Of a stretch of 64,000 nt of DNA, positions 11,379 through 63,080 are shown one piece after another. Position 1 is the first letter of the stretch. Each line of letters starts with the position of its first letter. The translations under genes were made by a program, and so were the position numbers. The notes beneath the pieces are model-generated. The model had not been told where the DNA came from. It saw only the letters and a program-made list of their open reading frames with translations, and searched no databases. Origin of the DNA: Marsupella aquatica (taxonomy: Eukaryota; Plantae; Marchantiophyta); contig OZ316893.1 of NCBI GenBank assembly GCA_973895155.1, forward strand, positions 3,950,490 through 4,014,489, written 5' to 3'.

Positions 11379-11644
11379 GATTGCCAGCATAGACACCGGG
11401 CCGGGGCCGTGCTAAGTCGGAATCCAAAAATCTTAACGGATTTTTTCGGGGACTTAGTGCTTCAACGTGCCCGACGGGTCGACTGCGGGCAGATTCGGTC
11501 GCTGGGAACAGGGCAAAAAACACTTGTGCAAAGAGTGGCAAGCAGGCTCCCCCCACCAAGGGGAGAGCCCAAGTTCACGACGAACAGAAGGAGGACGGGT
11601 CGACTTCCCTGGACGAATGTTACAAGCAAGACAAAGAAGACGCA

Positions 11645-14600: not shown

Positions 14601-16576
14601 ATGCAAGGATTGCGAGGCCCCTAAATGCGCTAACGTTGAAGAACAAAGTGATTGTGTGGACACAGGATTGTGAGTTAGCATTCCTAGAACTTAAGCGGTT
14701 AATGATAACACCGCCAGTTCTAAAGTAACCTGAGATGGGGAAGCCGTTCGAGATTTGGACAGACGCAAGTGATTATGCCATTGGCGCCTGTCTTCACCAA
14801 GATGGGCGTCCTGTGGCCTTCGAGTCATGTAAGTTGGAAAATCATTGGATCACGCCAGAAAGGGAAATGTATGTTATGATCTACGCGTTGAAGAAGTGGG
14901 AGATTTACCTTAAGAACGGTCCCAAAGTGGTAATTCACACAGATAGCTCGCCGGCGGGGTACTTCAGTTCTAAGCCAAGGCTGAACCCCAAGGAAATGAG
15001 TTGGCACATGTTCTTGGTGGATTTTGATTTCGAAGTCCGCCACGTTCCAGGGAAGACAAATACGGCAGCGGACGCGTTATCACGTAAGGACCAACAACGT
15101 GTCAATGGGATTACGATGCTCAAATCCGAGTGGCCAAAGGTTCTGGCCACGGCGTATGGGGATGATAGGTTAGCTAAGGATTGGCAGAGCAATGGGGGTA
15201 GCCGGGGCAAGGTAAGGCACGTATCGTTGGGGTTGGATACAACGCATAATGTCCAGTTATGGCAATACAAGTAGAGGCGTGTGTACATACCAGAGTCTCT
15301 AAGGTTAGAGGTTCTGCAAAAGTACCACGACTCGCCCTGGGGAGGGCACGGAGGACAAGCCGCCACGTATCGCAGCATGTCGCGAGATATGTATTGGCCG
15401 GACATGAAGCAATCGGTCCTTCAACACGTGCAAAGTTGTTACTCGTGCCGAAAGAACCAAACGGTCTATAGGGCAAAAGGAGGACTGTTGCAACCCTTAC
15501 CAGTAGCTGCGGCTCCATGGGAGTCTATCTCCATGGACTTCATTGTTGGATTACCTGAGTCCCACGGCAATAACTCCATCTTAACAATCGTGGATCGTTT
15601 TTCCAAGATGGCGTATTTCTTGCCTACTACGAAGATGGTTTCGGCCCGAGAGGTTACCGGTCTAGTATTTGACAATGTCTTCCGACAGTGGGGATTGCCG
15701 TTGCATATCCTGTCCGATTGCGATACCAAGTTCACGGGCCATTTTTGGAAGGCATTGTTCCGTTTATCCGGAACGGACCTGACTAGGGGATCAGCGTATC
15801 ATCATGAGACAGATGGCCAAACAGAACGGGTTAATGGTATTGTGGAGGACTACTTGCGTCACTTTGTGACAGCCAATCAGAAGGATTGGGCGAAGCATTT
15901 AACAATGGCCGAGTTTAGGTATAACTCGACCAAGCATTCGGCGATGGGCTTTGCGCCGTTTGTGTTGGTCACAGGGAGGACGCCAAGGGCGCCCTCCTGG
16001 TTTATAAATCCGGAAGCTTGGCGGACGGAAAGCAAGGTTCCTTCTGTGGACGATTTTGTTCAAGAGCTGCGCCTAGTTGTGAAAGCGGCTACCAAGGGTA
16101 TGACCCTTGCCCAAAGTCGGTACAAGGAGCAAGGGGATAAACATCGACGCCAGGTAAGCTTTGAAATTGGGGAGAGCGTCTGGTTGCAGTTGAGACCTGA
16201 GCAATACCACGGGAACGTAAGTAGGAAGCTGGCTCCCAAATATGCAAGGCCCTATCGCATCATACGATGGGCCCACAAGGATAATCCGGTTTCGGTGGTG
16301 TTGGAGACACTCAAGGAAATGGGCGTGGGCAAAAGCTACCATGTTAGCCGGCTCAAGAAGTTTGTCAAAGACAATGATCCCAACCGGGATCAGGTCTTCC
16401 GCCCGGACGCCATGCTGGTGGAGGACGCTGAGGAGTTTGAGGTGGAGGCAATTCTGGACCACCATTACAAACGCAAGTTGGGAAGGCAAATCTTAGAGTA
16501 TTTGGTGAAGTGGGCTGGCTACGACCAGGCCGAGAGTACTTGGGAACCGGAAGAAAATTTGGGTAATGCCTCATAG
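11645..16576 (+). pseudogene. gag-pol polyprotein with frameshifts and stops
   Basis: Zinc knuckle CFTCGAMGHQSKDC; protease ALVDTGA; [22 protein letters not shown]; RNase H WTDASDYAIGA; integrase HDSPWGGH...CYSC, SMDFI, TERVN; chromodomain FEVEAILDH...YLVKWAGY...STWEPEENL. Frameshifts near 12225, 12335, 13810 and 14340; stops at 14726 and 15272. Confidence 0.95.
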
Positions 16577-17046
16577 ATCCTTGGAAGCTATCGTAAGCGA
16601 AGCGGCCTACCGCCGTTGTGAACTGGTACAAGCAACTGTAGCTACCTTTGTGAGTTGTATCCTAGTTTCACTCCTCTTGACCTCTTAAGGATAAAGTCAA
16701 ATTGCGTTGGTACTAGAGGTTGTTGGGCGGCCGATTTGCTTTTTGCGAGTGGAAGTTGATGGTGCCCGCCCTACATCTGTGGGCGGGCTAGTTCGAACCA
16801 AAGGGGAGTGCCCCAAGGTGAGGACAATGGGACTGACGAGTTTGGAGTTAGCTTACCCGTTTGGACTAGCATCCTACTTGGATAAGTGGGATAGGTTGGA
16901 ATTTCCTAAGTTTGGAATGCGCATACCAACCTGGTTTGCATCAGCCTTATGGGCAAACCATTTGTTACCTCATAAAAAATTTTAAGGCCAAAAGTGGTCT
17001 AGGCGTGTTGGAACGTTTACTTAGGTCACGCGGACGTGACCATTTT

Positions 17047-35343: not shown

Positions 35344-38300
35344 ACGAAGGGGGGGGGGGGGGTCACTTCCACAAATGTTGACATCATGTGAAAACAAAGT
35401 AATTAAAGGGCATTTTACTCATTTTAGGGAAATACTTAGAAGTAGCGAGGAGGGGTTAACAATCCAAGCAGAGTTACTTTCATCACATGATTCATTGCTT
35501 GCCATGTGTCAATAAATGATTGGTGGGTTTCTTGAGCTTCCTATTCCTTTTAGTGAGAGTGGTTAAATAAGGCCATTCGCAAAGGGTAGACAACAACTTC
35601 ATAAGGTGAAGCTCCCGAGGTCCATGCAATCGGGTATATTGGAGTCCAGGTCAAGGGCTAAACATAGGCAACTAAAATAGAGGTATTGATCCTGTGACCA
35701 AAATGTTGCAGACAAGGTCATGGACCAAAAATATTTATGTTGTTTCCAACAAAAGGTGATCATCAGTAATTAGGGCAGTTAGTGCACCACTGTCCGCACC
35801 AAATGTTCTTTGCACAATATGTGTTGGTGCTGTTCAAGAATTGTTTTGCGCCCTTAAGAATATCAGCAACCATTTAAAAAATTGTTGGCACACATTTGAC
35901 TAAGGGAGCCTGTTGATACCTATCTCAAATCTGAAACCTTGTGGATTAAGTTGGCCAGAAAGTTGTGTTTTGGTCTAGGTTAGAGACATAGATCTCTTAG
36001 AACAGCTGACCACAAAAGCTGACCACAAAAAACAGGGAGAGGAGAATGGGTGTCTCAATCCTTCAGGTCCAGGTCCGCAAAAAAAACTTGTCCTGAAATT
36101 ATCAGGTTAGGTTTGCAAGCACCAATATGTGGACAAACATTTTCATATTGACCACTTTATTTCCAGGAAATTGCCCTTAACAGCAGCACAGCAGGAGGCA
36201 GAATGAAGAAGATTGATACGCCCTAATGCAATCAAGTCCACTCCACTCCACTCCACTCTGGAAGCATGAACTTCTAGTTGTAACGACTGCATTGAACAGA
36301 CATTACACTTGGACCAGGTAGAGCAGGATGTCGGATCTTGCGCTGCGGGCGGTCCCTTCTGCAATGAAGATGGTTGTTTATTATTGTAGCCCCTCGGAGC
36401 GTGCGTGTGTGTTACATGTGATTTTGTTGAAGAAAGGACGGATTTCTGAACCTGACGAACTGACTGACTGTTCAATGGGCGTGGCATGGAATGACCTGCC
36501 TCCTGCTGCAGTAGCAGTACCGCCGGTTCGTCTTGTTCATGCCTAATGAATGAAATCCCCAAATCTCTTGGCGCTAATACCCGATCAGAGAGGTCCTGGA
36601 CCCAAATGCTCAATCAGTATATCACCCAACGATCCAACAGTAAGTTAAACGGAAGAGAGTAGTTTAGGGTATGAGCTATGAAGATGTTAATGGCATCGAT
36701 GGACAGACTGATGAGGATCGAAATGCTTTTAATGTAATGCGAGGTTTGCAATTTTGAATGTACAGTACAGTACTCTTCGGGAAGTAAGTGAAATGACATC
36801 GATCGACAGAACTGATGATAGAAAGTAATGTTTTTATTAATGTAATGGGAGGGCAATATTTCCGGTTGCGAGGTAAATGTACTCGCCGTTGGGATTCATT
36901 AGGGGCCTGGAGGCGTACGAGTGTGCTACTGTGCTACAGGAAGGCCGGAGGATTCAGTAGGATCTTGGAAATTGATTCGAGAGACTACGTCGACGTGTAC
37001 GGGAAAAGTGGGAGGGAGAGGCTCAGAGGTGGTCATGGCCGAGTGATTACTCTCTAGTAACGGGTACATGTCCAGCTTGTCGAGGCCAATAATGAGCTCC
37101 AGCGCAGTCTGAACGCACCAGGGAGACTGCCCATGTGGATTGCTCCTGTGGCTGACTGATGAATGCACGACTCAGGCTTACGTTCGGAGCTTACGTTCGG
37201 AGGCTCTGGTGTCGGATTATTAGGTATATAGATCTTGCCTCCATTACACGAAGTGCATGGCCACCACTTTCTGTCTATTGATCATCGTCGACTTGAGAGT
37301 ATCACCTCCAGTCTGATCGAGGAGAAGATGGTGTGCGTGTGGTCGATCGATGGTGAGCTAGCTAAATCGTCTTGTACACCCCCGATTTTATCTTCGCGCT
37401 GCGATTTGAGTCCCGGACAAGACCTTGGCATTTTTCACGGCAGTCCTCGCTACTGGATCCTCGGAGTCCGACTCTCCCTTGACATCGTGGTCGAGAAGAA
37501 GTGGTAAGATCTGATGACGATGTCGCTGGAATGATCTTTTCTCGGATTGATTGGATACCTGGCTTTCTCTTGAAGGGAGAGGGAGGAACTCTTGGCCTTC
37601 TACGTTGATGACTCCCTCATCCAGCTGGCCGCGTCGGAGTCGTTCCAGGTGAGCAGGCATGGCCTAGGCTTACAGAAAGGGAAAAATTCGTTGCTTCTGA
37701 TCTTTAGCGGTCCTCGATCCAGTCAAGAATCGCGGCCTAATTCAGATACGTACATGCAATGTTTTACGGTGAAGATGCCAGGCCTAGTCGACAAGAGTCA
37801 TTTCTTGGCAGGGATAAGAAGGAAAGCATCTTGTCGATTAGGCCTGGAATCTTCAGAGCAAAGGGCACAGATCACGCGGCACCCACCAGAGGCACTCTCA
37901 TCATATAATACCCACTTAGTGTAAAGAAGGTAGAAGGACGTTCAATGTTTTCGTTTGATTCTTCGAACTGCGCCACAGAACTTTCGTCTAGGAAGCTGTT
38001 CGCTGGATAAATTGATATTCCATACTTGTAGTGCGAAAGATTAGTTCGTATTAGCCAGTTCTTCATCAAGTGGAAGCTGTACAAATTCATTATTCCATTT
38101 TTTACTCTTTGCTGATAAACAGGATTTGAATCTCTTAAAATCATCCATTTGAGTCTGAGGTGTCTCGATTCGAAATTTGCGAAACAGGTCTACCTACGAC
38201 GATTGAACATTGTCTCAAATTCTCATGAATCCCACTTCCGTATTGTTAGTTGTCTCCGGTGTCATTCTTTTTCCAGCCGATTGGTGGCGAAACAAATGGG

Positions 38301-41185: not shown

Positions 41186-44100
41186 GTTCGGCTTTACAGA
41201 ATGTGGGACTAACAATTAATTACACGCCGACATCAGCAAATCAGATGGGAGAACTTTCCTCGTGACTTTCCTCAGGACAACGTTAGGTGCATAGGGTTGG
41301 AAATGACTGCCCAGCATAGCAGTCTCAGTTTCGGCAACTTGTTCAAATGTCTCAATCTGCAGTTTGGTCACCGGCCATGGAGGTCCAGAGTGTGCCAATC
41401 GGCTAGCTGCAGCCGATTCTAAACCCTAAACAAGCACTGGCCGCTGTGCTACGTCGAGGTGTGTTTAAAAATTTATCAGTCATATGATAAAGGGTATATA
41501 CGCAAGAAAGACAGCATTGTTATCGCTGTTTAGCTAATGCTTTGTATGGAGGAAGTGAGAGAATGAGTTGTGCCAGTTGGAATCTCCATTTTGGCTTTCG
41601 TTGTTTCGTTGTTGAAAGCCAAGCCCACTTTCAAGCGTCCCGATGGCTAAAAAGATCAATCTTCGATCACAGCTTAAAAGTTAGGTCTCGTGCCACCAAG
41701 TAGTAGAAGAATAAAATTTCATTGTGGCAGGAAAACCCGCGGCAAACACAAGCCTAAGAATGTGTTCAAGTTGATCCGAGTCGCTACATCCAGAAGCAGT
41801 TAGCGTTGCACTCTATACGTGATATCTTTCTATAATATGCGGTGTTCATCAATAAATTGATGAAGAATGACTGCCTTAAAACACAACATAAAACTGAATT
41901 TTGCTTGATCAGAATGATGATTTGTACGTATACTCCAAGAATTCAGGTACCCTTGCCAACTGGCGATGTAGCTTCGAACAATGGATCTCCAGCATTCGGC
42001 TCCTTCCACATGTATCTAGCTCTAAATATTCTCTCTTGGCATTTCTTGAAACAGTCTGTGACAATGGTCAAATGCTGGCCGCGACCATGCCACGATTGTA
42101 GCTTCTTCCGTTTGTTAATTGTAACGATTCTATTCAATTAATGATTCAGCATTTGATCCAACGAGTTTCAAAAATGATCACTTTCGTCAATTCCGATCGG
42201 GATTCCGATTCTATGGATTATTTCAAAGAAGGAATGTGTAAGTTTATTGGGGATATATCCAGGCTTGCCGATGAGAAAAACTTTTTAATTGATGCCGCCA
42301 AAGAAGTCTCTAATCTGAACCGTTCAAAATGTACACATTTCTGAAGGCTTTTAACTCGGAGAACTTACGCTGTAACTTCCTTGACCGGGAAATTCATCGG
42401 CTCGTTTTTTTAGATTCTCACTGACGGCTGTACTTTCCACTTTCCAATGGCCTCAGATAATATTTCTCATTCCCAACTACTACGTTCAACTCCTCCTCGA
42501 AGTCAAGAAAGTGTCTTCCATATTCTTGATATTGTGACTGAGTGGATGGCCTCGGGAGTTGTTGAATGGCGCTACAATTCAGAGATGAGGACAATTGAAT
42601 TGAACCTGTGGGACCTATACACCACAACCTATAACTCGGAGGACCAGCTACTATGTATAAAAGCTGCGATCTTCTCAGGCCTTGTAGTAAGGCTCGTAGT
42701 AGATTTGGAGTATCCCGTAGTAAATTTCTATTCACGCCTCCGGCATTCGGCAATGCTAGAAAACTCAGATTTTGAAAATTGGCTAACGGGGGACCTACCG
42801 GCAACTTTTCCAGTAGAATACGTTTTCCAAGGAATAGTCCGGGTAGAAAATTCCAATCACATCATCCGATCATGAGCTCTTCACTTGAACTAATGAAAGA
42901 ATATTCGAGAGACTCACAGTAAGCTAGCCCATGTTAGCGAACAGAAGTTGATCTCCAGTTTTCTTCTCGGACGGTAGATACGTGGACTTGAGCGCTTTCG
43001 CAGGTTTTTCAAGAAATAAAAATTAGAAAAATGCCGAAGTTGTTGAGGCTTGGTGCATGAAGCCCGATCCATATTCTCCCATAGAAGGATGAATACATAT
43101 TTTTACGGTCTAGGGGCCCAGAGACACACGTAAGACATAGCAACATAGCAACCATTGAAGAATCGCGTGGAGCATACTCGGGATTCTAGCGATTGTGGTT
43201 ATTTTTTTGCTTTTCTCAACTGTATCCCTAGCCTGCCCCGAGAATTAACCCCAGCTTAGAAGTGTGTATCTGCAACTATGTTCGAGCGGGTATCATGGTG
43301 TCTGGACAAAAACTATCTGTCGCATTCTGCCACACGCCAGTATCTTTGGCTCAACATATTGCACCTACCAGATATCACCTCAAGAGACGTTCATTCTGCG
43401 GCCGGGACCGAGGTTGAGGGTTCATTGCAAACCTAAAGGAACACTCGGAGGCTATGAGCTACATCTTCTAGCTAGTGTAAATCGAATAAATATGATTTTT
43501 TTTAGGACAGAGGACTCTTGCTGATGTGCTACAGCGGAGATTTCTTGATAATTTGTATCATTCGCTCGATTGCAATATATATGTGATGATCTAGCGGTGA
43601 AACGATTTTGTAGCACTCGAACTTGAGTTCAGTATAGTCGCTGTAAATTAATATGGCCCCAAATCTGTTGACTGCGGACCCTTTTTGGGAGTTCGAGTCC
43701 CTGTAGTATCATTCCTTCTCGCGTTTGAGTTAGGAATGCCCCCGATGGTTCTTTCATGCCTTGAGAACGGACTAAACGGTCTACTGCAGAGTCACGCCTG
43801 TTCGTGTAAATGTTCAATTCGAGATCATTAAGAGATCCTCATAATTTTTTTTTAAAGCAACTAGAATTAGGCTGCAGTACACAGGTCAGAAACGCGATAT
43901 ATATCAATTAAAGACACGGTTTGACCATGCCAAGAAGACGCATCGGAAGGAAATGAACGATTTAACATTGAATCTTGACTTGGCAATTCAAAAGGTGGTC
44001 CTAAAGGCACCACCCTTTGTGATTGAGTTCTATAATTGGCCCGGATATCTTCGTTTAAGTTGCAGAAGTGAAGTTCATCAGCAAAATCTGGCACTGTAAG

Positions 44101-46802
44101 ACTAATATGCTACGACAAGACCGAATTGTCTTCAAATAAGGCCGAGAACTTAATGAAGTCAACCCTAAATTTGCGTTCGACACAATTAAAGGACTTTCTA
44201 TCATTTTTGCAAACTCTGCAGTTGATCAGAACAGTGCTACTAGCTTTTCAGTTCCATGTTCGGATGTACATTTGTCACATTGGTCAGCGCGCCAGTAGGG
44301 AGACGTACCTATCGAGCGGATGAGTGATTCGTAATCTTGCAGTGGATTCTAAATATTAATCAGTCAGAAAGACGGACAGGAAGAACTAGAAGGAGTCTAA
44401 GGCTTATATGAAAATATAAACCTAGCTTCCTCAGACGATCCAGCGATTGGTGTGCAGATTTAATTGGATATGGGAACTCCAGACAAAAGCCATCGCGCTC
44501 TTCACACCGATGAGAGAGCTTGGCACGCTCCTGAATTGGATCCCACGTTAAGGCATGTCCCACTTCAAGCATCTTCTGAACGGGCGTCTGCAGGTGTGTT
44601 AAACCGGTGCCTCCCATGTTTGGCTCCTAGGTAATTGATATTGCCCTATCGTTGCATTTCTAGGACCAACTCATGGACGACGTGGTCTTGCATATGTCCA
44701 TCACATGGAATCTTAGAAAGTTAGAAAGAACTACAGTTTAGCGAGATGCTACTTCCCATATGTCGCAAGCCGTTTCCCCCACACAATTGTCACACAAGGG
44801 TTTCGTCTTATGATGAATTTTTGTGGGTTCTAACAATACAGTACTGTGAACGAGTGTTAATAAATGGTAGGTTTCAATTTTCCATTTCATAAGCTAAAGA
44901 TTGAACCGCTCGCTTTCCTTTATTAGTTAATTAACTTACTCACGTTTTAGGGATGGATGCTGTAACTTTCTGTGTAGTAGTCGCTGTGGCTCGGCGGCAC
45001 ATTGAGCCAAAGAGAATGCAATCTCTGTGGCTGAGAAAATGCCACAGGGAATGCCGCAGGAGGTCGCATCCTCTGTGGCTCGGCAGCAGATTTTCTTTGG
45101 CAAACAAGAAAATTCTCTGCAAATCTAAATTCTAAGCTTAGGCCGCATTCTATTTATTGAGTGATAACATCAACCCTGATACAGCCATCGTCCTCAGTTA
45201 ACACCGCAGTAAACATTTTGTCAATAGCATGTCTCTGGAAGAAGATACTGTATCGTAAGAAAGCCACTGTAGAAAAATGTTTAGGTTTCAGAATATCATT
45301 ATTATGGAAAATTTTACGGCACTCTTAATTTTGCTGTGCCGTGTTATACCCGTGCAACGCACCTCCCAACTCCATATGGAGCACCTTCATCGTCTTCCTA
45401 CTCCCAATAGTCCCAGCAACTCAGAACTTGAAGAAGTCGGACGGGCCTGTAGCTGCACCTCCCAAGCCACATTATTGTTCACGTCCACACATTCCCGTAC
45501 CCTTCATGTCCCCTGCGGCTCATAGGCACCCAAAACCCATATTACCAAAGGTAGGTTTCTCTCCAGGTTCATCAGGTGGAGCAGTCTTCCCAAGCATCCT
45601 GCTATGTCCTCCTACAACTACGAATGTATCTAGCTCATGGTGAGAGTCTGTACTACTATGTTCGTCGTATTCTTGGAAGCCCTCTTCAGTAAGCCAGGGA
45701 TATGCGTCAGCTTGTTCATCACTAAATAGTTAGATTTAAAGTAGTAAAACCCTCGAGAATTCTCTTCTTCATATTTAAAGTACAAATATTTATTACCGCA
45801 ACCTCAGAACCTGAATGGAAATTCGTTGGTGTGTCCATGGCGTGTCAATGATAGGGCTAGTTTCGACTTTCGCACTGGCAGTACGTGTACATATCTAGTA
45901 AGATTTTAATAGCTATTTCTAATTCAATCTTAGATTGGAAATTGAGTTGAAGGTTTAGTTTCTAATCGGAGTGTATTTCACGATCGAATCCTCGCCGGGT
46001 ACAAGTAATCCTGAAGGGAAAACAAGATACACCCTACGCAAAGCATTTTAGTCTGAATGGGGCTTTAATTTGTGTTACTGAGTGTATTCAAACGTTTCTG
46101 TTGTTCTTAATAGAACAAAGAAGTACTGTGTTGGGGTCTGAAATGACACCCACGATCATTTTCAAATAAAATTGGTATGAAGCACCACATTAGAGGTTTG
46201 CTGTGAAAAAGCCAGTTAGGTCTGGTGTACGTGCATATACTCCAGAGCTTGAGGGCATAACTTTCAGAAAGATCCATAAAACAAGAGCTCTGGCTCAAAT
46301 TTTCTTCTAGTTCACTTGTTAGTAGGTATAGTCTCACGTCGGTAAGATATGAGCGCGTAAAATATGCTCTGCACTTGAACCACTAACCTATTGACTGCGT
46401 TACAGTTTTCCTTTTATCTTAACGCACCCTAGACTCGAGGTTTAATGCTGTCGTGGTCTGCTCTAGCTAGTTTGCAGTTGTGGCTGCTTGTATCATCGAT
46501 TTTGGTGAGCTAGAGGGAAGGAGCCATCGAAGGTGTCCTCATGAGTCTTAGTAAACTGCAATTGTTTGAAAATGAGAACTTAAAGAATCAATGGCTACTC
46601 ACGCTTTCTTTTCTCGTGACCTTCGTCGGAAGAGCCAAAAAAATGGGCTTCATAATAATTATGCGCTTGGACGACTGGCATTTGTAACGTAAGCACGCTA
46701 AATATAATCAATCGCGAGTCATATCGCTTGATCCTTCGAGATTATAAAGTTGGGGCTAACTGAACGTCTCTGTGTCTGTGAATAAACACCAGCTTCTCAT
46801 GG

Positions 46803-49800
46803 ATGTGGGATCGCCCTCAATCTGCCGACCTTGCTGAGATTCCACAATCATCAACCAGTCACGTCCATTTCTCTCAAAGCCCAATTGGGAAATACCCTGC
46901 AAAGAGAGGTGAGGTACAAATTCGTCAATATGTAGATAAAATGGAGTGGTATTCCAGGAACTTCAATAATTTAGTCCAATACCAAAGCATGACTATTGCA
47001 ATCAGTATTACAAAGATTAGAAATTTCAAAAGTTAAAGCCAGGGAAAACATGCATGAGATTCCTTCCACTGCTATGAAGAGGTTACTGTACAAATCCAGT
47101 GCTTTACAATTTTTCAATGAATGATAACGCCTTAGCATTACAGATCTTTACATCTTTTGGTACTAGGTGATATGTGTTCTGAACAGTCCTGAGTGGCCCA
47201 ATTGTGACCTTGTTCTGTCACGGATGACAGACGTCAGTCCCACCAACTCCAATGGTATTGTTGATGAAACTAGCATTCAGCACATCAAGAAGCAAAAGGA
47301 CGATAAAAGTTACAATCAAATCTCGAATCAAATGTCTCAAAACAACAGCTCCCGAAGTGCTACTCAGGTATTTCATATTCAATCTTCGAAAATGGAAGAT
47401 TGTTAGTTGCAAGATCCTGGAATCAGTTTCATTGAAGAAGACGGATTCAAAGTTCAATAAAATTAAAGAAACCTTCCTGACACATGTAGTGCTCTGAAAT
47501 GTTCTGCAATTTTTGATTTAGAACTTGATCATTTGATTGGGCGTAGTTTTGAGGTTGGTACTTTGTGTGCCTTTGAGGTTCAGCTTAATCACATAGACAA
47601 ACTGACGGTTATTGTACTCCCATCATGAAAACAAGAGGCTGCATATTGTGAATATGAACTAGCTTCTACTTTTGAATATAACCAACAATGAACGCAATTT
47701 CCGATCACACTTTTGACCGAATTGAAGAAAGCAAATTCCAAATTAGGTACAAATTATGAGACATTCCAGCACGACAGATGCAGAGTTTAAATCTTCTTCT
47801 TCGGATTCAGAACTCGTATGCCAAATTATCAACGTCGATAATTCTTCAGAATGTTCTTTACCTAAATAATATCCTATTCGTGAACTTGAAGAAGGAGAGG
47901 AAAAAGGAACATAAAATAAAGCTTAGATTGATTCCAATCTAGCAGTTAGTAGATCATTTATTTTAAGGTGGGGCTATAGAGAATGGGGGTTGAAGCGTTG
48001 AGGTCAGATGACTTTAGAAAGAGAGATCGGAAGATGACCAATAGCAAAAGTCGATGAAGGAAAGCCTTGAGACAAACCGAATGACTCTAGCTTTCATAGA
48101 TAGACTGTGAAATGTTTTATAGATTTCTATGACACATGTACTGATCTAAAGTCTGTTGGCTTCGGACACTAACAGTAAGTTGCAATGAGTGCGTAGGACG
48201 TCGAAAGAGAAGATTCAGAAACGTCATCTGGCTTGGAGGATCCACAAGTTGATACATCGCTAGAGGTCTACCCATACGACGCTGAAAGAATTTCGATTCA
48301 GAGTCGAATCTTTGGGAAATCAAACGATCTTTCCATCGAACCCGAATACTTTAGTCTCACACGCTACTTGGCTAGAGTATACACGGTAAGATTGTAAACC
48401 GCCACTGACAGTATACCATAGAGACTTCAACATGCATTCTACCCAAGTGATACTTACTACAGGCTAAGGAATGGCAATATATGTTCAATTGAATTGAGCT
48501 GCATTATTTCAAATAACTCAAATCACCTGATCGGATGCACGACTTGGTGGCATGACAGTCATATATAGTCAGTTGTGTCTCTCTTCTTATGGTAGAGAAA
48601 TTTTGGGTTGAGACTGTCAAACATGTTTGCCTTGCAGGCCCTTGAAAAGCGACAGTTTTACCATATGTGGGAGGAATGTCCGCCCTCACACGCACCGTCA
48701 ATACAAGAATTGCAGCAGTGCTGTTGGAGAGAGCTAGAGGTCCAATTGATGGGACAAAATGTAGACAGGAAAACCTTGCACGTCAACTTTCGAAGAGTAC
48801 AAACCAGACCTTGCTTTGCAGTACAGTTGTCTGACTAGCACAAACTAAAGTTTCTGCTAGGTTTATATATAGAATGAGGAAAGCATTCCACAAACTAAGT
48901 GGTACTTGTGATTTCTAATAAAATCTCATTGACAGTACTGAAATCGGACTTGGCCTGTTGCTGTTTAAGGAAGTGACGGCAGCGTCATTCGAGTTAGTGG
49001 AGAACCGTAAGAGGAGGATGTACAAGTGGCCCTTCCACGTTAAAAGACTCTACCGGTGAGACCGGGGACACAACATCTAATTAAGTTGACTAGGCTTAGT
49101 TCTCAGTTCTAGCTCAAGTGCGGATGGTAGGTCGGGCGCGCTGGTGAAGGAAAATGAACCGATTCTCTATTTATTGAAACGAAAATGATTTTCTTTCCAA
49201 AAAATGGGGTCCTGTCTTGAGTTCCTTACAATATTGAGTTGAATAGATGTCCGGAGAGCTAGAAGTTGAATCTATTATAGAGCTGCATACTTATCACCAA
49301 AACAGCTGAGTAGCACTTTTATTGAAATGGGATTTGACCTGATTGACAAATAAACTGCCACTCAACCTATGAAAACTGACGTAGTTATTCTATCTCTGAA
49401 CAATCAGGAAATGGATTTCAGAACATGCTGGTGAAACTTGGGACACTCCATCCAGCAAAGCATGTCAGGATATGTCAACAGAAACAGGGGTGCCTGCAGA
49501 GAAGGTTTGTCTTACTGACGATTTCGTATCTAAACCTCCGTTCTTTGGTCCTTCAGGCATGAGTGTCTATATATGGAACACGGCCGAAATGTACGTAGGA
49601 CAACATTGCTTCGTATACATTATCTCAATCAATGCTGGTTACATAAACATTTAGTCAAACGTTGAAATTTTACGGAGAGGATACTCCCGGTCATACCGTT
49701 TGAATGAAAAAATGAATTAATGGATTCAAATTCGAGGTTTCCCAGACATGCATATTAATGCGTTAGAATTGCATGGTGTAAATATCTGATAAAACAAGTA

Positions 49801-51486
49801 GGTTCAGTTACTACGATGAAGAAAATCCGGGATGAGAAAATTTGGAGGGTTCTCGACAAACATTTACTATCTAAAGTCAATTCAACCTCAAAGAAAATCA
49901 AAAGTTTTGATATCATCCTAGCTTAGGCTACTGTTAGTGACTCATAAGAATGGTCGATAACGCTCCAATTGTTTGGATTCTTCTTATACTCATAACAACA
50001 ATACTTCATGACGTTCTACTACGTCTTGAAACAGTGATGAGAGTGAACTTTTCATAAATTTAAAATAGTTATAGATCTTCACAGACCTAATACTTTGTCT
50101 TTATGTTCAGATTTATCGACATTTGAAGGCGAAAAGAATTAAACTGAGGGCTACAGTAGAAAAGAAAGCGAAAGAACAAGGAAGAACAATTGAAAAGAAA
50201 CAGCGGATGTGTATTAACAAGCAAATCAACCCTACTCAGAGAGACTTGCTACGGTGGGTTCTGAATGCCCTAATCCGAGGGACTGCTTCCCTCGTATTTG
50301 CGCGTAATTTAGAACAAGTGTGAAAAGGATTTACGGCCAATATTGAAGTACTTTTCGGCACTACTACAAAAGTACAGAGCTGCCTAAGTCTAGGAAATTC
50401 CCCGCGTTAGCCATTGTGTATTCTCCAGTAATTATAGTGCTTGAAGTAAGCTGGCATTCGCGTCCAAAGGATTATTTAACTGTCCATGATGCTAGTGAGA
50501 TTCTCTTACACCTTCGGGATAAGGGATCGCGTTAATAAATATGTGCGATAAATTCTTGAAGTAGAGAAGCTAGACGTTATTTCGGGACAGACAACAGCAA
50601 AGCTTTCGGAAATTCCTTGATTTCCAGATTCTGGTAACTCATTAAGATTAAATTCCGTATCTGTTCATACAGGTCTTGGATTGCAGCTCACATAGAATAT
50701 CCCTTTCCAAATGAAGACGAGATGAAAGTCCTAGAAAAGGAAACGCGGTTAGAACCAGAGAAGGTTTGTTCTTCCTCCAACACCATGACGTCAATAAAAG
50801 TCACACCAAACCTGAGAGTTAGATAGAGTTAGATGTACTACATTATGATGACTTGCTCACTTTTTTATAGGGAGAGGTACTTAGATCGGTTGAATCATCA
50901 CTGAGACTTTCTAATATTAATTGGAATCAATTCAAGAGATGAAAAAAAAAAGTAGACGTTAGCGTCCTTGTCAGAGGATGACAGTTGCTCTTAACACATT
51001 GTTTTTCAGAGATTGAAAGCGCTGTCTATCCTCTGAACTCCTTGGATCCTTTTTTAGACTGACTCACCTCGAATTCTATTGTAGATCTGGAAATGGATTG
51101 AGTACTACATAAATATATCCAGATCAAAATTTCCACCGGGGAAACAGTTTAAACATCCAGGGGATGATACAAGGACCCCTTGGTTAAAGCCGGTAACGAG
51201 AAGGAAAACGGATGAAGCCTCAACACAATCAAAGGAAGATTCAGCTGCTGAGCTCGCTGCTAGAATATTGGCCAATAAACCTGGTATCGAGAAATTACAA
51301 AGAGAAATAGAAGATCGGAGAAGGGCAAGGAAAGAAAAAGAAGCTCAAGAAGCTATCCAGACGTCAGAGTTAACTAGAGCAGTGGAACAACAAGGCGAAA
51401 CCTACGAAAACTTGGAGCCTGAAGAATTAGATTTTGCGGCTGAACTGGAATCAGGGATAGAAGCTGATTTAGGGAATGTTAACTAG
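46803..51486 (+). CDS. Predicted multi-exon protein with two tandem divergent TALE-like homeodomains (~496 aa; 5' exons tentative)
   Basis: Phase-consistent GT-AG exons: 46803-46913, 47167-47367, 47747-47815 (tentative), 48197-48385, 48638-48739, 48970-49055, 49408-49504, 50111-50253, 50673-50763, 51085-51486. HD1: NRKRRMYKWPFHVKRLYR|KWISEHAGETWDTPSSKACQDMSTETGVPAEK|IYRHLKAKRIKL. HD2: KKQRMCINKQINPTQRDLLR|SWIAAHIEYPFPNEDEMKVLEKETRLEPEK|IWKWIEYYINISR. Acidic, coiled-coil-like C-terminus. Confidence 0.75.
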
Positions 51487-51761
51487 AATCAAGAAGACTA
51501 GGATTCCCTAAACTGCTAGAATTCGACCTTGAAATTGAATAGAAAACTCACTCACTAAAGAAATGCCCGAAGAAATGTATCCAACAGCTCTGGGAACTAG
51601 ATAAAACTTACAAATCGTAAAGATCTATAGAAGACGCTCTGGGAACTAGAGATAGAACTTACAAATCGTAAAGATCCATGGAAGACCACCCAACTACTTC
51701 AAGTCAGAAAAAGTTCAAACCAGAATCAAGCTCACGGGTCGAATCCTGGTATAGATTACTT

Positions 51762-52092
51762 TTTTGCCTTAAAAAAACAATTTGAAATTCATCCAAAAAG
51801 CCAGCATACAACGGTGGCCCACAAAAGGGGGTCGAGGGGGACCAAAGGTAGCGCGAGCTGCCCATGAGACCGGAGAGGCCGGCACCAGAAGAGAAGCAGG
51901 CCCAGCACGAAGGGAGCCAAACCAGAAATTTAACTACTACAGAAGGAGCGGCACACCCCAAAGACCGGCCAGTGAGGAGTGCCGGCATGGCACCCAACAG
52001 TGGGTCAGTGATAAAGTAAAACAATATCAGTCTAGCCTGCAGTCAAGCTTCTACTCCTGACTCCAACACCTAAATCATGGGGGACGGGGTGT
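51762..52092 (-). mobile_element. 5'-truncated non-LTR retroelement 3' end (LINE/SINE tail)
   Basis: Flanked by 18-19-bp TSD ATCCTGGTATAGATTACT(T) at 51743-51761 and 52093-52111, with an oligo-T on + (A tail on -). The paralog at ~59690-59710 has a single, empty site. Confidence 0.85.
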
Positions 52093-55342: not shown

Positions 55343-55900
55343 TCAGAAACCATAGAAGAAATAAGCAGTGAAGTTGAGATTTGCATTGGCGACGTCAGTC
55401 AAGGAGTAAGTGGTGATGTCTGCCCACCCTCGAGCCAATCGAAAGTCAACAGTGCCCCCAACAATGGCTATTTCCCTCACAGGAGCCGCAATCCTGTCGA
55501 ACCCCTTGAACGTCAGTGTGCTGCCGGGAGTGAAGCCGCTCGCTTCGTTGAACTCCGCTGTAAACGAAAACTCGAGGCCCGCTATCATGGTGCTGTTCTG
55601 ATCAAAGATGTAGAAGCCTCGGCCTCTGCCGATCTCCAGGGACGATTCCTCCGGACCTACGGTCATGGAATCGTCGAACACGGACAAAGCTCCGAAAAAG
55701 CTCTGGTTGACGAGCGGGAGTGAAAATCCTGCCAACGGTGGCAAAATAATGAAAGCGCTCGGGTTCATGGCGGCGAGAAGACGATCGTGCAAGAAGAAGT
55801 TGAGGACCTTGCTTTGTTCCGCTACCGCAGCTGGGCTGCTCATGATTCCCAAAGCACAGGCTACAAGAGCTACTAGGGCCGCCATTGTCGATGTCCTCAT
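55343..55900 (-). CDS. Dirigent-family protein (185 aa, intronless, signal peptide)
   Basis: Hydrophobic N-terminus and dirigent motifs LNFFLHD, FGALSVFDDSMTVGPE, IGRGRGFY, GSTLTFKG, REIAIVGGTVDFRLARGWA. Confidence 0.92.
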   Translation of the reverse strand: MRTSTMAALVALVACALGIMSSPAAVAEQSKVLNFFLHDRLLAAMNPSAFIILPPLAGFSLPLVNQSFFGALSVFDDSMTVGPEESSLEIGRGRGFYIFDQNSTMIAGLEFSFTAEFNEASGFTPGSTLTFKGFDRIAAPVREIAIVGGTVDFRLARGWADITTYSLTDVANANLNFTAYFFYGF

Positions 55901-56544
55901 ATTGATAGAGCTCCGAGTCCTTCCGCTGTTTAGTACACTATCAAAGTTGAACCAAAAGAGGACGCTCCTCAAAATGAATGACGAGAAATATCATACATTT
56001 CGAATGGCATCTGCAGAGAGAGGTTCATGTCAAGACTTTGGCGGAGTGCACGTGGAAAGACCACAAATAGGGATCTCTGATCTGCAAATTAGGGACACCT
56101 CTTTCTCAAATAAGGATCATCATTAACATTTCAGACATCAGCTAGAGCCATACCTGGCCTCCTGGTCACGGGCGCGGTCTCTCGTTGTAACTGTAAACTA
56201 TGAATCGCCGAATTCGAGAGGACTCATCAACAAATATTTCTCTCTGCGGTTACGACGCCAACAACGGTCTTCCTATAATCGCCACCGCCATGTCGTTCGC
56301 TTGATATCTCTTGGACAAGTTCGCCTCTTCGAATACTCTTTATCTTTCCACAAATTGCTTGACGAGTAGAGCGCGAGTTGTCAGGTCCGCGGCAACTCCG
56401 TGAATGTAGTCAATAATACTAATGTACGGTAACTCGTACACAGATCGATCTGTCCGCCACGGATGTAGTTAATGACATTAATGTACTGTCGCTCGTCCAC
56501 AGTTTGATCTGTCGGCAAAGCAAAATTTATTGTGTCTGGAGTCT

Positions 56545-58140
56545 GTGAAGGAGGCGGAGGCCTGCTCCACGATTTTGAGGCTGAGATGGTTCGTTGGATG
56601 GACTTCATCCTGCAGTCCAGGTGGACTGGTGAAGGAGACAAATGCTCCAAGCTTTTCGTCAGAAGCTTCAAAGGACTGGCCATGAAGGACTGGTAGGTTA
56701 GGGAGACAAATGCTCCAAGCTTTTCGTCAGAAGCTTCAAAGGACTGGCCATGAAGGACTGGTAGGTTAGGGAGACAAATGCTCCAAGCTTTTCGTCAGAA
56801 GCTTCAAAGGACTGGCCATGGATAAGGAGATCACTGAATTACTTATCCCAGAGGAACGAATCGTCAGTGGGTGGGAGGATTTGGCCACCAGGGCTACCAA
56901 AGTCTTCCAAGGCATTCTCGGTCAATCAGCTGGTTTCCACTGGGAACAGTGTCAAAAGTTGGATTTGACCACCACGGCTACCAAAGCCTTCCAAGGCATT
57001 CTCGGTCAATCAGGTGGTTTCCTCTGGGAACAGGTGTCAAAAGTTTTCGAGCTGCAAACCAAGCGCATCACAATGGAGGACAGAGATCTGCTGAATGCAT
57101 CCCTCACGGTGGACTTGGGAAAGCAGCAGTGCTAGACAACAATAAGTGCCCCGGCCCCGATGGAGTCCCTGTTGAATTCTTCGTGGCACATTGGCACACG
57201 GTGGGTCCTTCTCGTCATAGAGCTCTGCTGCAAGGAATGGCCGATGGGACATTCTCTCCAGAAAGCACCCGGGGCCTAATTGTCCTACTACCAAAGAAGG
57301 ACTACCAAAGGTCCTTAACCAAGAAGCACCCCATCACCCTCTTAAATGTGGCTCATTCCGGTCTTGCAGCAGTTCATCTCGCTCCAACAATTCGCCTTTC
57401 TCCCGGGAAGAAATATCCTCATTCAAATTCAATTGGTTTTTCTGAGGCAAAAACAAAAACAAAAAACCTCATTCTGTTGTGCTCCTCAATGAGAGGCCTC
57501 CAGGTTGGAATATATTCTGCTGAAACTGGATGTCATCAAGGCCTTTGACAAGCTTGATTGGCATTTTCTGATGACTCTTATGGAAAAGGCCGGGTTCAAT
57601 GTGCTGATCATGCAGTTTTTTATGGCAACGCACGCATCTGCATCTTTGGCTGTGCTGATCAATAGAAGAATGGTTTCACCATTCAGTCTAGCTCATCGGT
57701 GAGGGAGGGATACCCTCTGTCTCCTCATTGCGATTGATTCCCTTAGCATAATTCTTACCAGGGAGGTCAGTCGGGGTTCGATTCAAGATGTGCACATTCA
57801 ACACTTGGCGGTACACAACATACACAATTTGTTTGCAGTCAGAGGATATTGCTTTGCTCATTCGTGCTATGATTCACTTGTCGATAGATGTAAGCTGGTT
57901 TTGACCTAATTGGCATGGTTTCCGGCCTCTTTGGTGCCTGGGAGAAAAACCAAGGCTGCATTTAATTTCACGCACAGGATTCGAATTGAGTTTAGACATC
58001 TACCCTGGAAGTGGGAGGATGAGCACAATGCCACTAAGCTTCTTGGGATCCCTCTTGCTCGGCACATTTCGGAACATCAAATGGTCCAAACCTTATCCGA
58101 TAAACTTGAGTCAAGACTTGACAGGGTCCGTAAGACCTCG
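56545..58140 (+). mobile_element. Degenerate L1-clade LINE ORF2 fragment (reverse transcriptase)
   Basis: RWTGEGDKCSKLF, NKCPGPDGVPVEFF, GLIVLLPKK...PITLLNV, LKLDVIKAFDKLDW...LMEKAGF. Multiple frameshifts, plus an internal 67-bp triplication at ~56622-56820 and a 75-bp duplication. Confidence 0.88.
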
Positions 58141-58148
58141 GATATTTG

Positions 58149-59825
58149 GAGAGCTACTTAGATCGGTTGAATCCTCACTGAGACTCTCTAATATTTATCG
58201 GAATCAATTCAAGAGAGCGAAAAAAAACCTGGACTTTAGCGTCCTTGTCAGAGGATGATAGCTGCTCTTAAGATATTGTTCTTTAGAGATTGAAAGCGCT
58301 GTCTATCCTCTGAACTCCTCGGATCCTTTTTTAGACTGACTCACCTCGGATTCTTTTCAAGATCTGGAAATGGATTGATATATATCCAGATCAAAATTTC
58401 CACCGGGGAAACAGTTTAAACATCCAGGGGATGATACAAGGACCCTTGGTTAAAGCCAGTAACGAAAAGGAAAACGGAAGCAGCCTCAACACAATCAATA
58501 ATATATTCAGGTGCTGACCTCGCTGATAGAATATTGGCCAATAGACCTGGTATCGAGAATTGCAAAGAGAATAGAAGATCGGAGAAGGGCAAGGTAAGAA
58601 AATGAAGCTCAAGAAGCTATCCAGACGTCAGAGTTAACTAGAGCAGTGGAACAACAAGACGAAAACTGCGACAACTTGGAGCCTGAAGAATTAGATTTTG
58701 CGGCTGAGCTGGAATCAAAGATAGATGCTGATTTAGAGAATGAAGAGTATAATCAAGACGACTAGGATTTCCCAAAACAGCTAGAATTCGACCTTGAAAT
58801 TGAATAGAAAACTCACTCACTAAAGAAATGCCCGAAGAAATGTAGAGTGAGAAGTGGAAGATCAGAAGAATCAAACGAGAGATACTGCACTAAACAGGTG
58901 CATTGAGTCGCAAGTATATACTTTGGCTACATATCTAACTTTCAATTTGGTACAGTTTAGATTTATGCAATTCTCTTAAGAAGCCAGATCAAACCATAAT
59001 TTTTCTGATCGAAGAATAAGGTGCATCAAAAGATAGTTGAAGATTATGTATGCACACAACAGGCTGTAGTTCGAAATTAATTCATTTCACATTGCCGACA
59101 AACAAATCAGATCCGAATTTAGATTCGCAACTAATCGACTCTTCTAGATGTTCAGATGCATCCGTGTTCAGACGCACGTGCAGACATCTATGCATCCCTG
59201 CTCTGTACAGAGCCAGCTTACCAACCACTGCAACAACTACAAACAACAGGCAAGAACAACGTCCAATCAAGACTGGGGCTCAGATTGGCTACGATAAATT
59301 GCTGAAAGGAGTCTTCCCCTTGAAGACAAACACGAAAAATTGAAAATTGTTTATAGCAGTATTGCTATTTTTTAATCTCCCATCTAATTGCTATCTATTC
59401 ATAATTATGGATCTAACGGTGATAAAGTGGTTCTCAACCCCAAACTCCTCAATTTCAGGAATGCCAACTTAGCGCGCAGAGTCACGCTGTCCAATGCACG
59501 GTCACGACCTTTCGCTTATATAAGTTTGTGGAAAGGTTGCGATGAGATAGTCAAGGGATCCCAATGCAAATGGACCCAACAGCTCTGGGAACTAAAGATA
59601 GAACTGACAAATCGTAAAGATCTATACAAGACCACCCAACTACGTCAAGTCAGAAAAACATTCAAACCAAAATCAATCTCGCGGGTGGAATCCTGGTATA
59701 GATTGCTTGCTATGTCGTCTTTGCAGATACATTCCATCAAGAATTGCCGACGACTCCAGCCGAGAACCAACATGGACCTTGGAGGGTTTCCTCGTGGCGA
59801 ATCACGGAGGACATCACATTCAAGC
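58149..59825 (+). repeat. Segmental duplicate of 50870-52222, including a frameshifted copy of the last exon of the double-homeodomain gene
   Basis: 58149-58843 matches 50870-51580 and 59576-59825 matches 51582-52222. The exon copy at 58362-58760 carries indels. Confidence 0.9.
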
Positions 59826-61082: not shown

Positions 61083-63080
61083 CTCGTGCTCGAGCTCGTG
61101 ACCAACATGGGAGATCCAAGATTCTGTGGAAAGACTGTTCTTCCCCCTCATTTTCAGCACTTATAACTCAGCCATCTCCAAATTGTACCCTTAGTGCGCC
61201 TCGACCAGTTGGGAAAGAAAAATCGTCAGTTTTCTCCAGGGTTAGAGAGACACACATGGATGCCAGAGGTGCCCAAGAAGGACAAGGACCAAATGACGAT
61301 CTATCTTCTCAATTGCCGAAGGTTTGGTTTCCAAACATTTGGTAAGTGCCGAAGTAGACGCAATGCTATTATCGAATAATTTCCTTCTTGTGCAAACTAA
61401 GACTGATCCGTCGGAACCGGTCCCTGTGCATATTCCCTGCAAGCACGTCGTTTTCATTACAAACCGGCTTTTGGAGGATCATGTGCTACAAGACTACAGT
61501 ACATATTGATGATGAAGTTTGCGCACGTCTAGCAAGGAATATTTATCTAACATTTTCCCCAATTATAGAGCAGTGTCAGAAATAATTCTCTAAATTTTAT
61601 TTTACTGCTTCAAAGCGATATATCACCGAAGAGTTGACGGAAAAAGGTGCTTGGATAATTCTTGAAATATGTACAGAAAGGAATATGTCACTGGAACCAA
61701 AAACGGTTTTTGAGAACCAAATCTGGGCAATCTCGGAAGTCACTAAGGTATTGAAAGGTGATAGATTTGCAACCATGAGCCCCAGTCTTTGAACGATCAA
61801 ATTCACTGCCAGTGAATCCATAATTTGGCTCCACCGAGTTTTAGAATTTGAAGCTCGACGTTGACAATCTGTGAAAACCAGGATTGAATCAACAAGTGCC
61901 TTCATGACTGCTCTGTTATCCCAAGAACCCTCATCTATCATTGAATTTTCATTAAAACAAGTTAACTAAGTATATTTAATAAACGAATATAATCTCATTG
62001 GATTTTTCAATATCTGTAGTGGCAATCCCGGCGATGTTATCAACCATGAGGTAGGCTCAGACCAACTCAATAACAAAAGTCAAGAGATCCGAGACAGACG
62101 CCGAAAGCTACGAAATAAACCTCTCAAAGACGATGCCGCTACGAACACACTGAGGTAAATTTTAAATATGACTAGTGTTCATCTTGATTCTCTTAAAATC
62201 TTGTCTGTTTAGCCTGTTGTATTTCCCACGAGTTTCTTCTACATGTCCTTTGGCCGGAATCAAATCGCAGGTGGGAAAACGGCTTGAATTGGATGATCTT
62301 AAACTGTGGACCACTGCCTTCGATTTCAGAATTGTTAGTAGTGTGGAATTCTTTACAAAATAGTACACCTTAATCTCTCTCGCAGGAGTTGGCTGGCTCA
62401 GAACCAAGAATACCCATATGCCACTGATGACGAAACAGCTGAATTAGTGACGAAAACGGGCCTGACAAGCTATCAGGTTTTTTTATGGATAATCAGTCGT
62501 CAATTGTGATTAACAAAAATTGTACAATTGTCCATTGTAACTCTTTTGGAACTTACTAGAGTACCTGATCAAGAGCGGGAATTAATTGAGGGCTGAAATA
62601 AACAAAACGTTGCATGTAAAGTGGCTACCTGAATACTATTAGGGAACCTTAAGCATGAATATATAGTTAGTTCACCTAGTCAAATGGGTTGTACATAATG
62701 ATCTATTCAACATTTGAAGTCGGCTATCAGAATGTCCGCTCTGAGCTTGTACATATCATAGGCCGGGTACAACAGCTAAAATTTTCAATGCTTTTACACA
62801 GGTCAAGAAAGGCTTGCAGAGACTGCGGGAGGACGAATTCAAGGGATCAGTAAAATATGTTCAAGGGACCTATAAATGGACGAGGGATGAGATACTCCGG
62901 ATGATTAGAAATACGGAACGACATTCAGTGGCGCCAATGAGTAGGTCTGTAGACGTAGTACTCAGTTCCTTTCTGTGTATCAAATCTAATTTTCGAATTG
63001 CTTTTCCTCGAAGCTCCTGTTCGCAGAACATGTTTAAAGTCAGAGCACTTTCAGACCTTTTGCTAGACTATACGTCGTAG
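61083..63080 (+). CDS. Second divergent TALE-like homeodomain gene (partial model; start and end uncertain)
   Basis: Phase-consistent exons 61083-61341, 62020-62154, 62386-62476 and 62802-(63080) give RRRKLRNKPLKDDAATNTLR|SWLAQNQEYPYATDDETAELVTKTGLTSYQ|VKKGLQRLRE. The two homeodomain intron positions match the gene at 46.8-51.5 kb. Confidence 0.7.

What the first reader, a model, noticed from the sequence alone, without database searches (positions are those of the whole stretch)
48970..51486. Hidden gene with two tandem, highly divergent TALE homeodomains
Seen: five consecutive GT-AG exons splice in frame into two homeodomain-like units about 15 residues apart. Each unit is cut by a phase-2 intron in helix 1 (R|xW) and a phase-0 intron before helix 3. 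The HD2 middle exon is 91 nt (SWIAAHIEYPFPNEDEMKVLEKETRLEPEK), matching the 30-residue span of the BELL/KNOX segment of type AWLFEHFLHPYP...TGLSRNQ with its three-amino-acid loop; HD1 has two extra loop residues. Established: plant TALE proteins (KNOX, BELL) normally have one homeodomain, BELL genes have an intron just before VSNWF, and KNOX/BELL pairs trigger zygote development in green plants. Inference: this is a lineage-specific double-TALE protein that arose by exon-block duplication. I could not recognise a KNOX/MEINOX or POX domain.
Basis: partly seen in the sequence, partly recalled or inferred. Interest (0 to 1): 0.88.

Follow-up and report, generated by a model that had tools for sequence, protein, structure and literature searches.

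The report
Liverwort gamete-type BELL gene, two homeodomains
This is a real intron-containing gene with two TALE homeodomains in a row, and it is likely a new member of the liverwort 'BELL-gamete' family already described in Marchantia, where such genes help start development of the fertilised egg.

Summary
The five exons splice in frame, and an independently annotated protein of the liverwort Calypogeia fissa matches the product across all four junctions (155 of 264 aligned residues identical). Both units are homeodomains by profile and by predicted fold. The architecture is not new: Marchantia MpBELL2/3/4 ('BELL-gamete', Dierschke 2021) carry two or three homeodomains. MpBELL3 was among the 51 hits in 1.84 billion proteins. 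It aligns collinearly over both domains with the same spacing (80 against 81 residues). Intron positions fit neither plant KNOX nor canonical BELL. Neither domain keeps the usual W48/N51/R53 set, yet the more degenerate first domain is the better conserved one between the two species (71% against 53%). Likely role: a gamete-supplied KNOX partner (inferred, untested). No RNA data were available, and the tree does not resolve the clade. A broken partial copy and a second TALE gene lie downstream. Verdict: new member of a known kind.

The parts
46803..46913 (+). Possible first coding exon with ATG (tentative)
   Evidence: One of three ATG-to-donor phase-0 candidates in 44000-47100; no homology support
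47167..47367 (+). Candidate upstream exon, phase 0/0 (weak)
   Evidence: AG/GT-bounded, open, splices in frame; no homology support
48197..48385 (+). Probable upstream exon, phase 0/0
   Evidence: AG/GTAAG-bounded, open; its last residues continue the alignment with the MpBELL3 pre-homeodomain segment
48638..48796 (+). Upstream exon with a Cys-containing pre-homeodomain motif shared with MpBELL3
   Evidence: Ranks first of 1657 six-frame pieces for a profile of two MpBELL3 segments, E 0.009; shuffles 15/2000 and 1/2000; 3 of 4 listed substitutions in organism B are synonymous
48970..49055 (+). Exon: N-terminal arm and helix 1 of HD1; phase-2 intron in codon 17 follows
   Evidence: 18/24 identical to C. 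fissa
49408..49504 (+). Exon: HD1 loop (two residues longer than TALE) and helix 2; 44/45 intron follows
   Evidence: 25/32 identical to C. fissa
50111..50253 (+). Exon: HD1 helix 3, linker, HD2 arm and helix 1
   Evidence: 24/48 identical to C. fissa
50673..50763 (+). Exon: HD2 TALE loop and helix 2 (91 nt)
   Evidence: Homeobox_KN 23.2 bits, E 6e-5; PKNOX1/Meis hits
51085..51486 (+). Last exon: HD2 helix 3, conserved helical segment, acidic tail, stop
   Evidence: 12 of the last 40 residues are D/E
58148..58844 (+). Broken partial duplicate of the end of intron 4 and the last exon
   Evidence: 90% identical over 710 columns, several frameshifts
62020..62476 (+). Second, separate TALE homeobox gene: exons 62020-62154 and 62386-62476, same phase-2 intron in helix 1; source of helix 3 undecided
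   Evidence: Homeobox_KN 30.2 bits, above cut-off; top hit of the own TALE profile in the window; read-through 48.6 bits against splice to 62802 48.4 bits

Best explanation
The locus is a spliced gene encoding two tandem TALE homeodomains behind a Cys-containing segment, likely a member of the liverwort BELL-gamete family (MpBELL2/3/4 type) that would act as a gamete-supplied partner of KNOX1 at fertilisation. Shown: exon structure, the C. fissa counterpart, two homeodomain units, collinear similarity to MpBELL3 inside and outside the homeodomains. Inferred from Marchantia genetics: expression in antheridia or gametes, heterodimer formation with egg KNOX1, transport of KNOX1 into the pronuclei, and activation of karyogamy and sporophyte genes. 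Inferred from sequence: since neither helix 3 keeps the W48/N51/R53 set and HD2 has an acidic residue 50, KNOX would supply most base reading, while this protein would supply partner binding, nuclear import (basic arm before HD1) and an acidic activation tail. Odds: real two-homeodomain gene about 0.95; BELL-gamete member about 0.8; KNOX1 partner acting in zygote activation about 0.5.
For: MpBELL3 (BFI41821.1) is one of 51 hits at E<=0.001 among 1.84 billion proteins, in one stretch covering both domains. With the upstream exon included it is the best non-self match among the 67 proteins held: local score 168 against 139 for the next, 43 against 32.5 bits. Spacing between the helix-1 Trp of the two domains is 80 (window), 81 (C. 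fissa), 81 (MpBELL3); Cys motif to HD1 is 56 against 59. A profile made only from MpBELL3 pre-homeodomain segments finds exon 48638-48796 first of 1657 pieces. The helix-1 motif P[FYW]HV occurs in 3 of 142 domains compared: window HD1, C. fissa HD1 and MpBELL3 residues ~1850 (motif chosen after seeing the alignment). The C-terminal domain is closer to the TALE consensus than the upstream one (42.4 against 19.4 bits), as published for MpBELL2/3/4. Introns at 44/45 and 17(2/3) differ from plant KNOX (27/28) and from moss canonical BELL (24[2/3] plus 44/45) (Joo 2018 supplement). Constraint: 6 of 10 listed exonic substitutions in organism B are synonymous (20% expected, p 0.007) and 0 of 12 listed indels fall in exons (p 0.03). 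Marchantia function.
Against: On the two homeodomains alone MpBELL3 is not distinguishable from unrelated multi-homeodomain proteins (140 against 139); domain by domain, several non-plant domains score higher than MpBELL3's. The tree (143 rows, 69 columns, quick method) puts HD1 beside one MpBELL3 domain (SH-aLRT 93, with one unrelated row) and HD2 beside another (85, with two unrelated rows), but neither fork is starred and the branches are long. MpBELL2 and MpBELL4 were not among the 20 of 50 non-self hits that I had named, so only one family member was compared. No canonical plant BELL, GLX-basal or KNOX sequence was in my comparisons. The MpBELL3 segments for the profile were chosen after seeing the resemblance. 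The variant table was cut (40 of 72 rows), and the synonymous test ignores transition bias. Mpbell2, the member closest in size, has no single-mutant phenotype.
Confidence: 0.78

Rival explanations
1. A BELL-gamete paralog that has become an inhibitor: it still binds KNOX or other BELL proteins but no longer binds DNA, and so sequesters them, in the way proposed for the homeodomain-less MpKNOX1A/B.
For: Helix 3 reads H48/A51/R53 in HD1 and W48/Y51/I53 in HD2, whereas control TALE domains have W48 in 130, N51 in 91 and R53 in 124 of 134. I53 is shared with C. fissa. The decoy idea for KNOX1A/B is in PMC8476127.
Against: MpBELL3, which is a positive regulator, also has degenerate helices (only its last domain keeps W48, N51 and R53). 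C. fissa keeps N51 in HD2. The acidic tail fits an activator. This reading is a variant of the best explanation, not a different family.
Confidence: 0.2
2. An independent duplication of a single non-KNOX TALE homeobox in leafy liverworts, only superficially like MpBELL3.
For: Homeodomain-only scores and the tree do not isolate MpBELL3; tandem TALE domains occur in many unrelated eukaryotes among the 51 hits.
Against: It does not explain the shared pre-homeodomain segment at the same distance, nor the equal domain spacing.
Confidence: 0.12
3. A KNOX or canonical BELL gene that has diverged beyond recognition.
For: The Atlas structure search lists KNOX clusters among the nearest models, all under its bar.
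Against: No KNOX1/KNOX2/ELK/POX hit in 9 upstream and neighbouring pieces, 5 exons or the C. fissa protein; no 27/28 or 24[2/3] intron.
Confidence: 0.04
4. A pseudogene or chance splicing.
For: No RNA run was available; no start codon is established; a broken copy lies 7 kb downstream.
Against: Open frame over 455 codons in 8 exons, 59% identity to an annotated protein in another species, excess of synonymous changes.
Confidence: 0.04

Closest known systems
MpBELL3 (Marchantia polymorpha, BFI41821.1, BELL-gamete clade; PMC8476127)
   Same: Tandem divergent TALE domains, collinear over about 190 residues including a pre-homeodomain Cys segment; same spacing; last domain nearest the consensus.
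   Different: MpBELL3 is 2791 aa with three recognised domains; this gene is about 455-490 aa with two. Identity is low (22% for the C. fissa protein). HD1 here has two extra loop residues, and HD2 lacks R53.
MpBELL2 (Mp4g09650)
   Same: Small protein with two homeodomains, per PMC8476127 section 5.
   Different: Described as consisting of only the two domains; this gene has an upstream segment and a long acidic tail. Sequence not retrieved, so not compared.
CAM6091827.1, unnamed protein of Calypogeia fissa
   Same: Likely ortholog; 155 of 264 aligned residues identical, aligned through all four junctions.
   Different: Its annotated start lies just before HD1, so it lacks the upstream segment (possibly a truncated model); longer acidic tail.
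Canonical land-plant BELL (PpBELL1-4, MpBELL1)
   Same: TALE loop; 44/45 intron.
   Different: Single domain, POX domain and 24[2/3] intron, none seen here.
DUX4 double homeodomain (animals)
   Same: Two homeodomains in tandem; appears in the fold searches.
   Different: Not TALE class, unrelated origin; an analogy only.

Membership tests
TALE homeodomain superclass | Three-helix homeodomain fold | tested here: met
   Predicted models of the C. fissa ortholog: HD2 Z 10.9 to MATalpha2, HD1 Z 9.6 to CDX2; the second model used MpBELL3 as alignment row
TALE homeodomain superclass | Three extra residues between helices 1 and 2 | tested here: met
   HD2 aligns without gaps to PKNOX1/Meis; HD1 has two further residues
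TALE homeodomain superclass | Recognition helix W48-F49-x-N51-x-R53 | tested here: not met
   HD1 H48 L49 A51 R53; HD2 W48 I49 Y51 I53; controls. Bears on DNA binding, not on descent
BELL-gamete (MpBELL2/3/4) | Two or three homeodomains, the C-terminal one least degenerate | tested here: met
   19.4 against 42.4 bits; definition
BELL-gamete (MpBELL2/3/4) | No discernible POX/PBC domain | tested here: met
   No Pfam hit; the 5' end is not fully known
BELL-gamete (MpBELL2/3/4) | Sequence similarity to a member outside the homeodomains | tested here: met
   Cys segment shared with MpBELL3; my own criterion, modest significance, one member only
BELL-gamete (MpBELL2/3/4) | Placement in the BELL-gamete groups of the homeodomain tree | tested here: inconclusive
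   near MpBELL3 domains but unstarred; no other plant TALE rows available
BELL-gamete (MpBELL2/3/4) | Expression in gametangia, gametes or young embryo | not testable with these tools
   No RNA run listed
BELL-gamete (MpBELL2/3/4) | Binds KNOX1 and brings it into the nucleus | not tested
   No KNOX1 sequence of this lineage was retrieved; shown for MpBELL4
Canonical land-plant BELL | POX domain and 24[2/3] intron | tested here: not met
Land-plant KNOX | MEINOX and ELK domains, 27/28 intron | tested here: not met

The most novel reading that the evidence does not exclude
The building block of BELL-gamete proteins is a module of Cys segment + degenerate homeodomain + homeodomain. It is present once here and twice in MpBELL3, which would hide a fourth, unrecognised homeodomain at about residues 2630-2690. 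The Cys segment and first homeodomain, strongly conserved although stripped of DNA-reading residues, would be the missing KNOX-binding surface that replaces the POX/PBC domain: a homeodomain turned into a dimerisation domain.
Probability: 0.25. Interest if true: 0.6.

Novelty: new member of a known kind. Interest (0 to 1): 0.33.

Why it matters
As a family member it is ordinary: multi-homeodomain BELL genes are known in liverworts. It adds a compact version from a second liverwort lineage, and so dates the two-domain arrangement to before the leafy/complex-thalloid split. It also marks a conserved segment outside the homeodomains. Dierschke et al. could find no PBC-type dimerisation domain in these proteins and could not easily test the 2791-aa MpBELL3, so a protein of about 470 aa with a defined conserved module makes the question 'what binds KNOX1 at fertilisation?' easier to test.

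Tried and rejected
No whole genome is held. No RNA holder was listed; the four runs behave as DNA and show no exon-joining contigs, which says nothing on expression. Word-indexed protein searches returned only the C. fissa protein (1 of 1086, 70 and 2063 candidates); MpBELL2/4 were not retrieved. ESM Atlas gave only sub-0.9 leads for the double domain and for the upstream exon. Foldseek gave no match at E<=0.001, though the listed rows were homeodomain proteins. Two first attempts at a control profile had too few seed domains and were replaced. The careful tree did not finish; only the quick tree is reported. An alternative acceptor at 48935-48936 was rejected: wrong phase, and altered in organism B. 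The hidden fourth MpBELL3 domain is weak (1.6 bits, reached by 37 of 2000 shuffles). No complex was predicted, as no KNOX partner was in hand. The figure data file of PMC8476127 is a picture, and its homeodomain alignment is a figure, so I could not compare with the published BELL-gamete sequences or see whether the module is already marked there. PMC11006913 was searched for N51/R53 statements without result; their role is recalled knowledge. Four look-ups of earlier scan findings gave nothing on this locus.

Full report
Observation. A search with the last exon returned one protein among 1086 candidates: CAM6091827.1, an unnamed 324-aa protein of the leafy liverwort Calypogeia fissa. It aligns with the spliced product across all four junctions, with 155 of 264 aligned residues identical. 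This is an independent gene model, not RNA evidence; no RNA run was listed. That the window comes from a liverwort is inferred from this match.

Both units are homeodomains. The HD2 exon scores 23.2 bits on Homeobox_KN (cut-off 24) and hits PKNOX1 and Meis without gaps. HD1 has no Pfam hit but scores 23.8 bits on a profile of 134 TALE domains cut from the other search hits, above all 2000 shuffles. AlphaFold models of the C. fissa protein show two three-helix units (mean pLDDT 61 alone; 70 with MpBELL3 as second row). HD2 matches MATalpha2 and Exd at Z 10.8-10.9, and HD1 matches CDX2 at Z 9.6, rmsd 2.2 over 70 residues. Both domains have introns in codon 17 (phase 2) and at 44/45, which fits an intragenic duplication.

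It is a known architecture. Dierschke et al. 2021 (PMC8476127; I read the outline, passages and sections 5, 7, 8, 11 and 24) describe MpBELL2, 3 and 4 of Marchantia as BELL-gamete genes with two or three homeodomains, the last one most conserved, made by intragenic duplication, with relatives throughout liverworts and in some mosses. An exhaustive search with the C. fissa double domain gave 51 hits at E<=0.001 among 1.84 billion proteins. I looked up 20 of the 50 non-self hits; the only one with a plant name was MpBELL3, matched in one stretch over both domains (E 6.6e-5). The spacing between the helix-1 Trp residues is 80 in the window, 81 in C. fissa and 81 in MpBELL3.

The gene extends upstream. 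Three further GT-AG exons (47167-47367, 48197-48385, 48638-48796) splice in phase 0 onto the core and give 455 codons without a stop. The nearest carries a Cys-containing segment like one found twice in MpBELL3, before residue ~1850 and before residue ~2630 (reached by 15 and 1 of 2000 shuffles). A profile built only from those two MpBELL3 segments ranks this exon first among 1657 six-frame pieces of the window (E 0.009), though I chose the segments after noticing the likeness. With this exon, MpBELL3 becomes the best non-self match of the 67 proteins held (168 against 139). In organism B, 3 of 4 listed substitutions in this exon are synonymous; over all five exons covered, 6 of 10 are, and 0 of 12 listed indels are exonic (40 of 72 substitution rows were shown). 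The start codon is not established; a candidate lies at 46803.

Against the assignment. On homeodomains alone MpBELL3 ties with an unrelated protein (140 against 139), and single-domain scores do not rank it first. The quick tree puts HD1 and HD2 near MpBELL3 domains but with unstarred support, long branches and unrelated rows mixed in. MpBELL2, MpBELL4, MpBELL5 and canonical plant TALE proteins were not available for comparison. Intron data from Joo et al. 2018 (PMC6219170; passages and rows of supplement 1) give 27/28 for land-plant KNOX and 24[2/3] plus 44/45 for moss BELL. The window gene has 44/45 but neither of the others, and no KNOX, ELK or POX hit. I could not see whether MpBELL2/3/4 share the codon-17 intron.

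Mechanism. In Marchantia, sperm- and egg-supplied MpBELL3/4 are needed for karyogamy and embryo development, MpBELL4 draws MpKNOX1 into the nucleus in BiFC, and KNOX1 enrichment in pronuclei falls without paternal MpBELL3/4 (Hisanaga 2021, PMC8478417, passages). I infer the same role here at about even odds. Helix 3 is degenerate in both domains: H48/A51/R53 and W48/E50/Y51/I53, against W48 in 130, N51 in 91 and R53 in 124 of 134 control domains. That N51 and R53 are central to DNA contact is recalled knowledge. The protein would therefore be a weak DNA binder that works mainly through its partner, either as co-activator (acidic tail) or as decoy. HD1, although further from the consensus, is better conserved between the two species than HD2 (71% against 53%), which suggests a constrained non-canonical function; this rests on one species pair.

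Novelty. Five literature searches found the family described in PMC8476127 and its preprint (passages) and discussed for Riccia (PMC11923412, passages); none of the listings pointed to this gene or to the C. fissa protein. In the text I read I saw no mention of the Cys segment or of a repeated module in MpBELL3, but figures and the alignment were not visible. The verdict is a new member of a known kind, with a modest, testable addition about the conserved module.

Noticed in passing
window 62020-62476 (+), possibly to 62940: A second TALE homeobox gene with the same phase-2 intron in helix 1; its middle exon passes the Homeobox_KN cut-off. Helix 3 is either read through the next donor (W48 kept, early stop) or spliced to 62802 (W48 lost); the scores tie. 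It is not a close copy of the first gene.
   Followed up: partly
window 58148-58844 and 59568-59823: Frameshifted partial duplicate of the last exon and 3' flank, about 90% identical, directly after a decayed LINE-like reverse-transcriptase stretch at about 56800-58140 (LINE identity judged by eye). It accounts for the second copy seen in the sequencing runs.
   Followed up: partly
P0032 (MpBELL3) residues about 2550-2760: Looks like a second copy of the module Cys segment + degenerate homeodomain + homeodomain; the hidden domain is only weakly supported (37 of 2000 shuffles).
   Followed up: partly
window 55346-55990 (-): Dirigent-like gene (Pfam PF03018, E 6e-28) between the TALE gene and its broken copy.
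   Followed up: no
window about 11400-16600 (+): Ty3/gypsy retrotransposon with gag, protease, RT, RNase H, integrase and chromodomain, split over several frames.
   Followed up: no
window about 51760-52090: High-copy repeat inserted just 3' of the gene (depth 20-50 times background); absent from the duplicated flank at about 59660.
   Followed up: no
window 56625-56822: Three tandem copies of a unit of about 65 nt (seen).
   Followed up: no
window 36146-36613 (-): ORF with a weak, below cut-off match to the P2RX7 intracellular domain (E 0.003); perhaps a transposon-derived Cys-rich domain.
   Followed up: no
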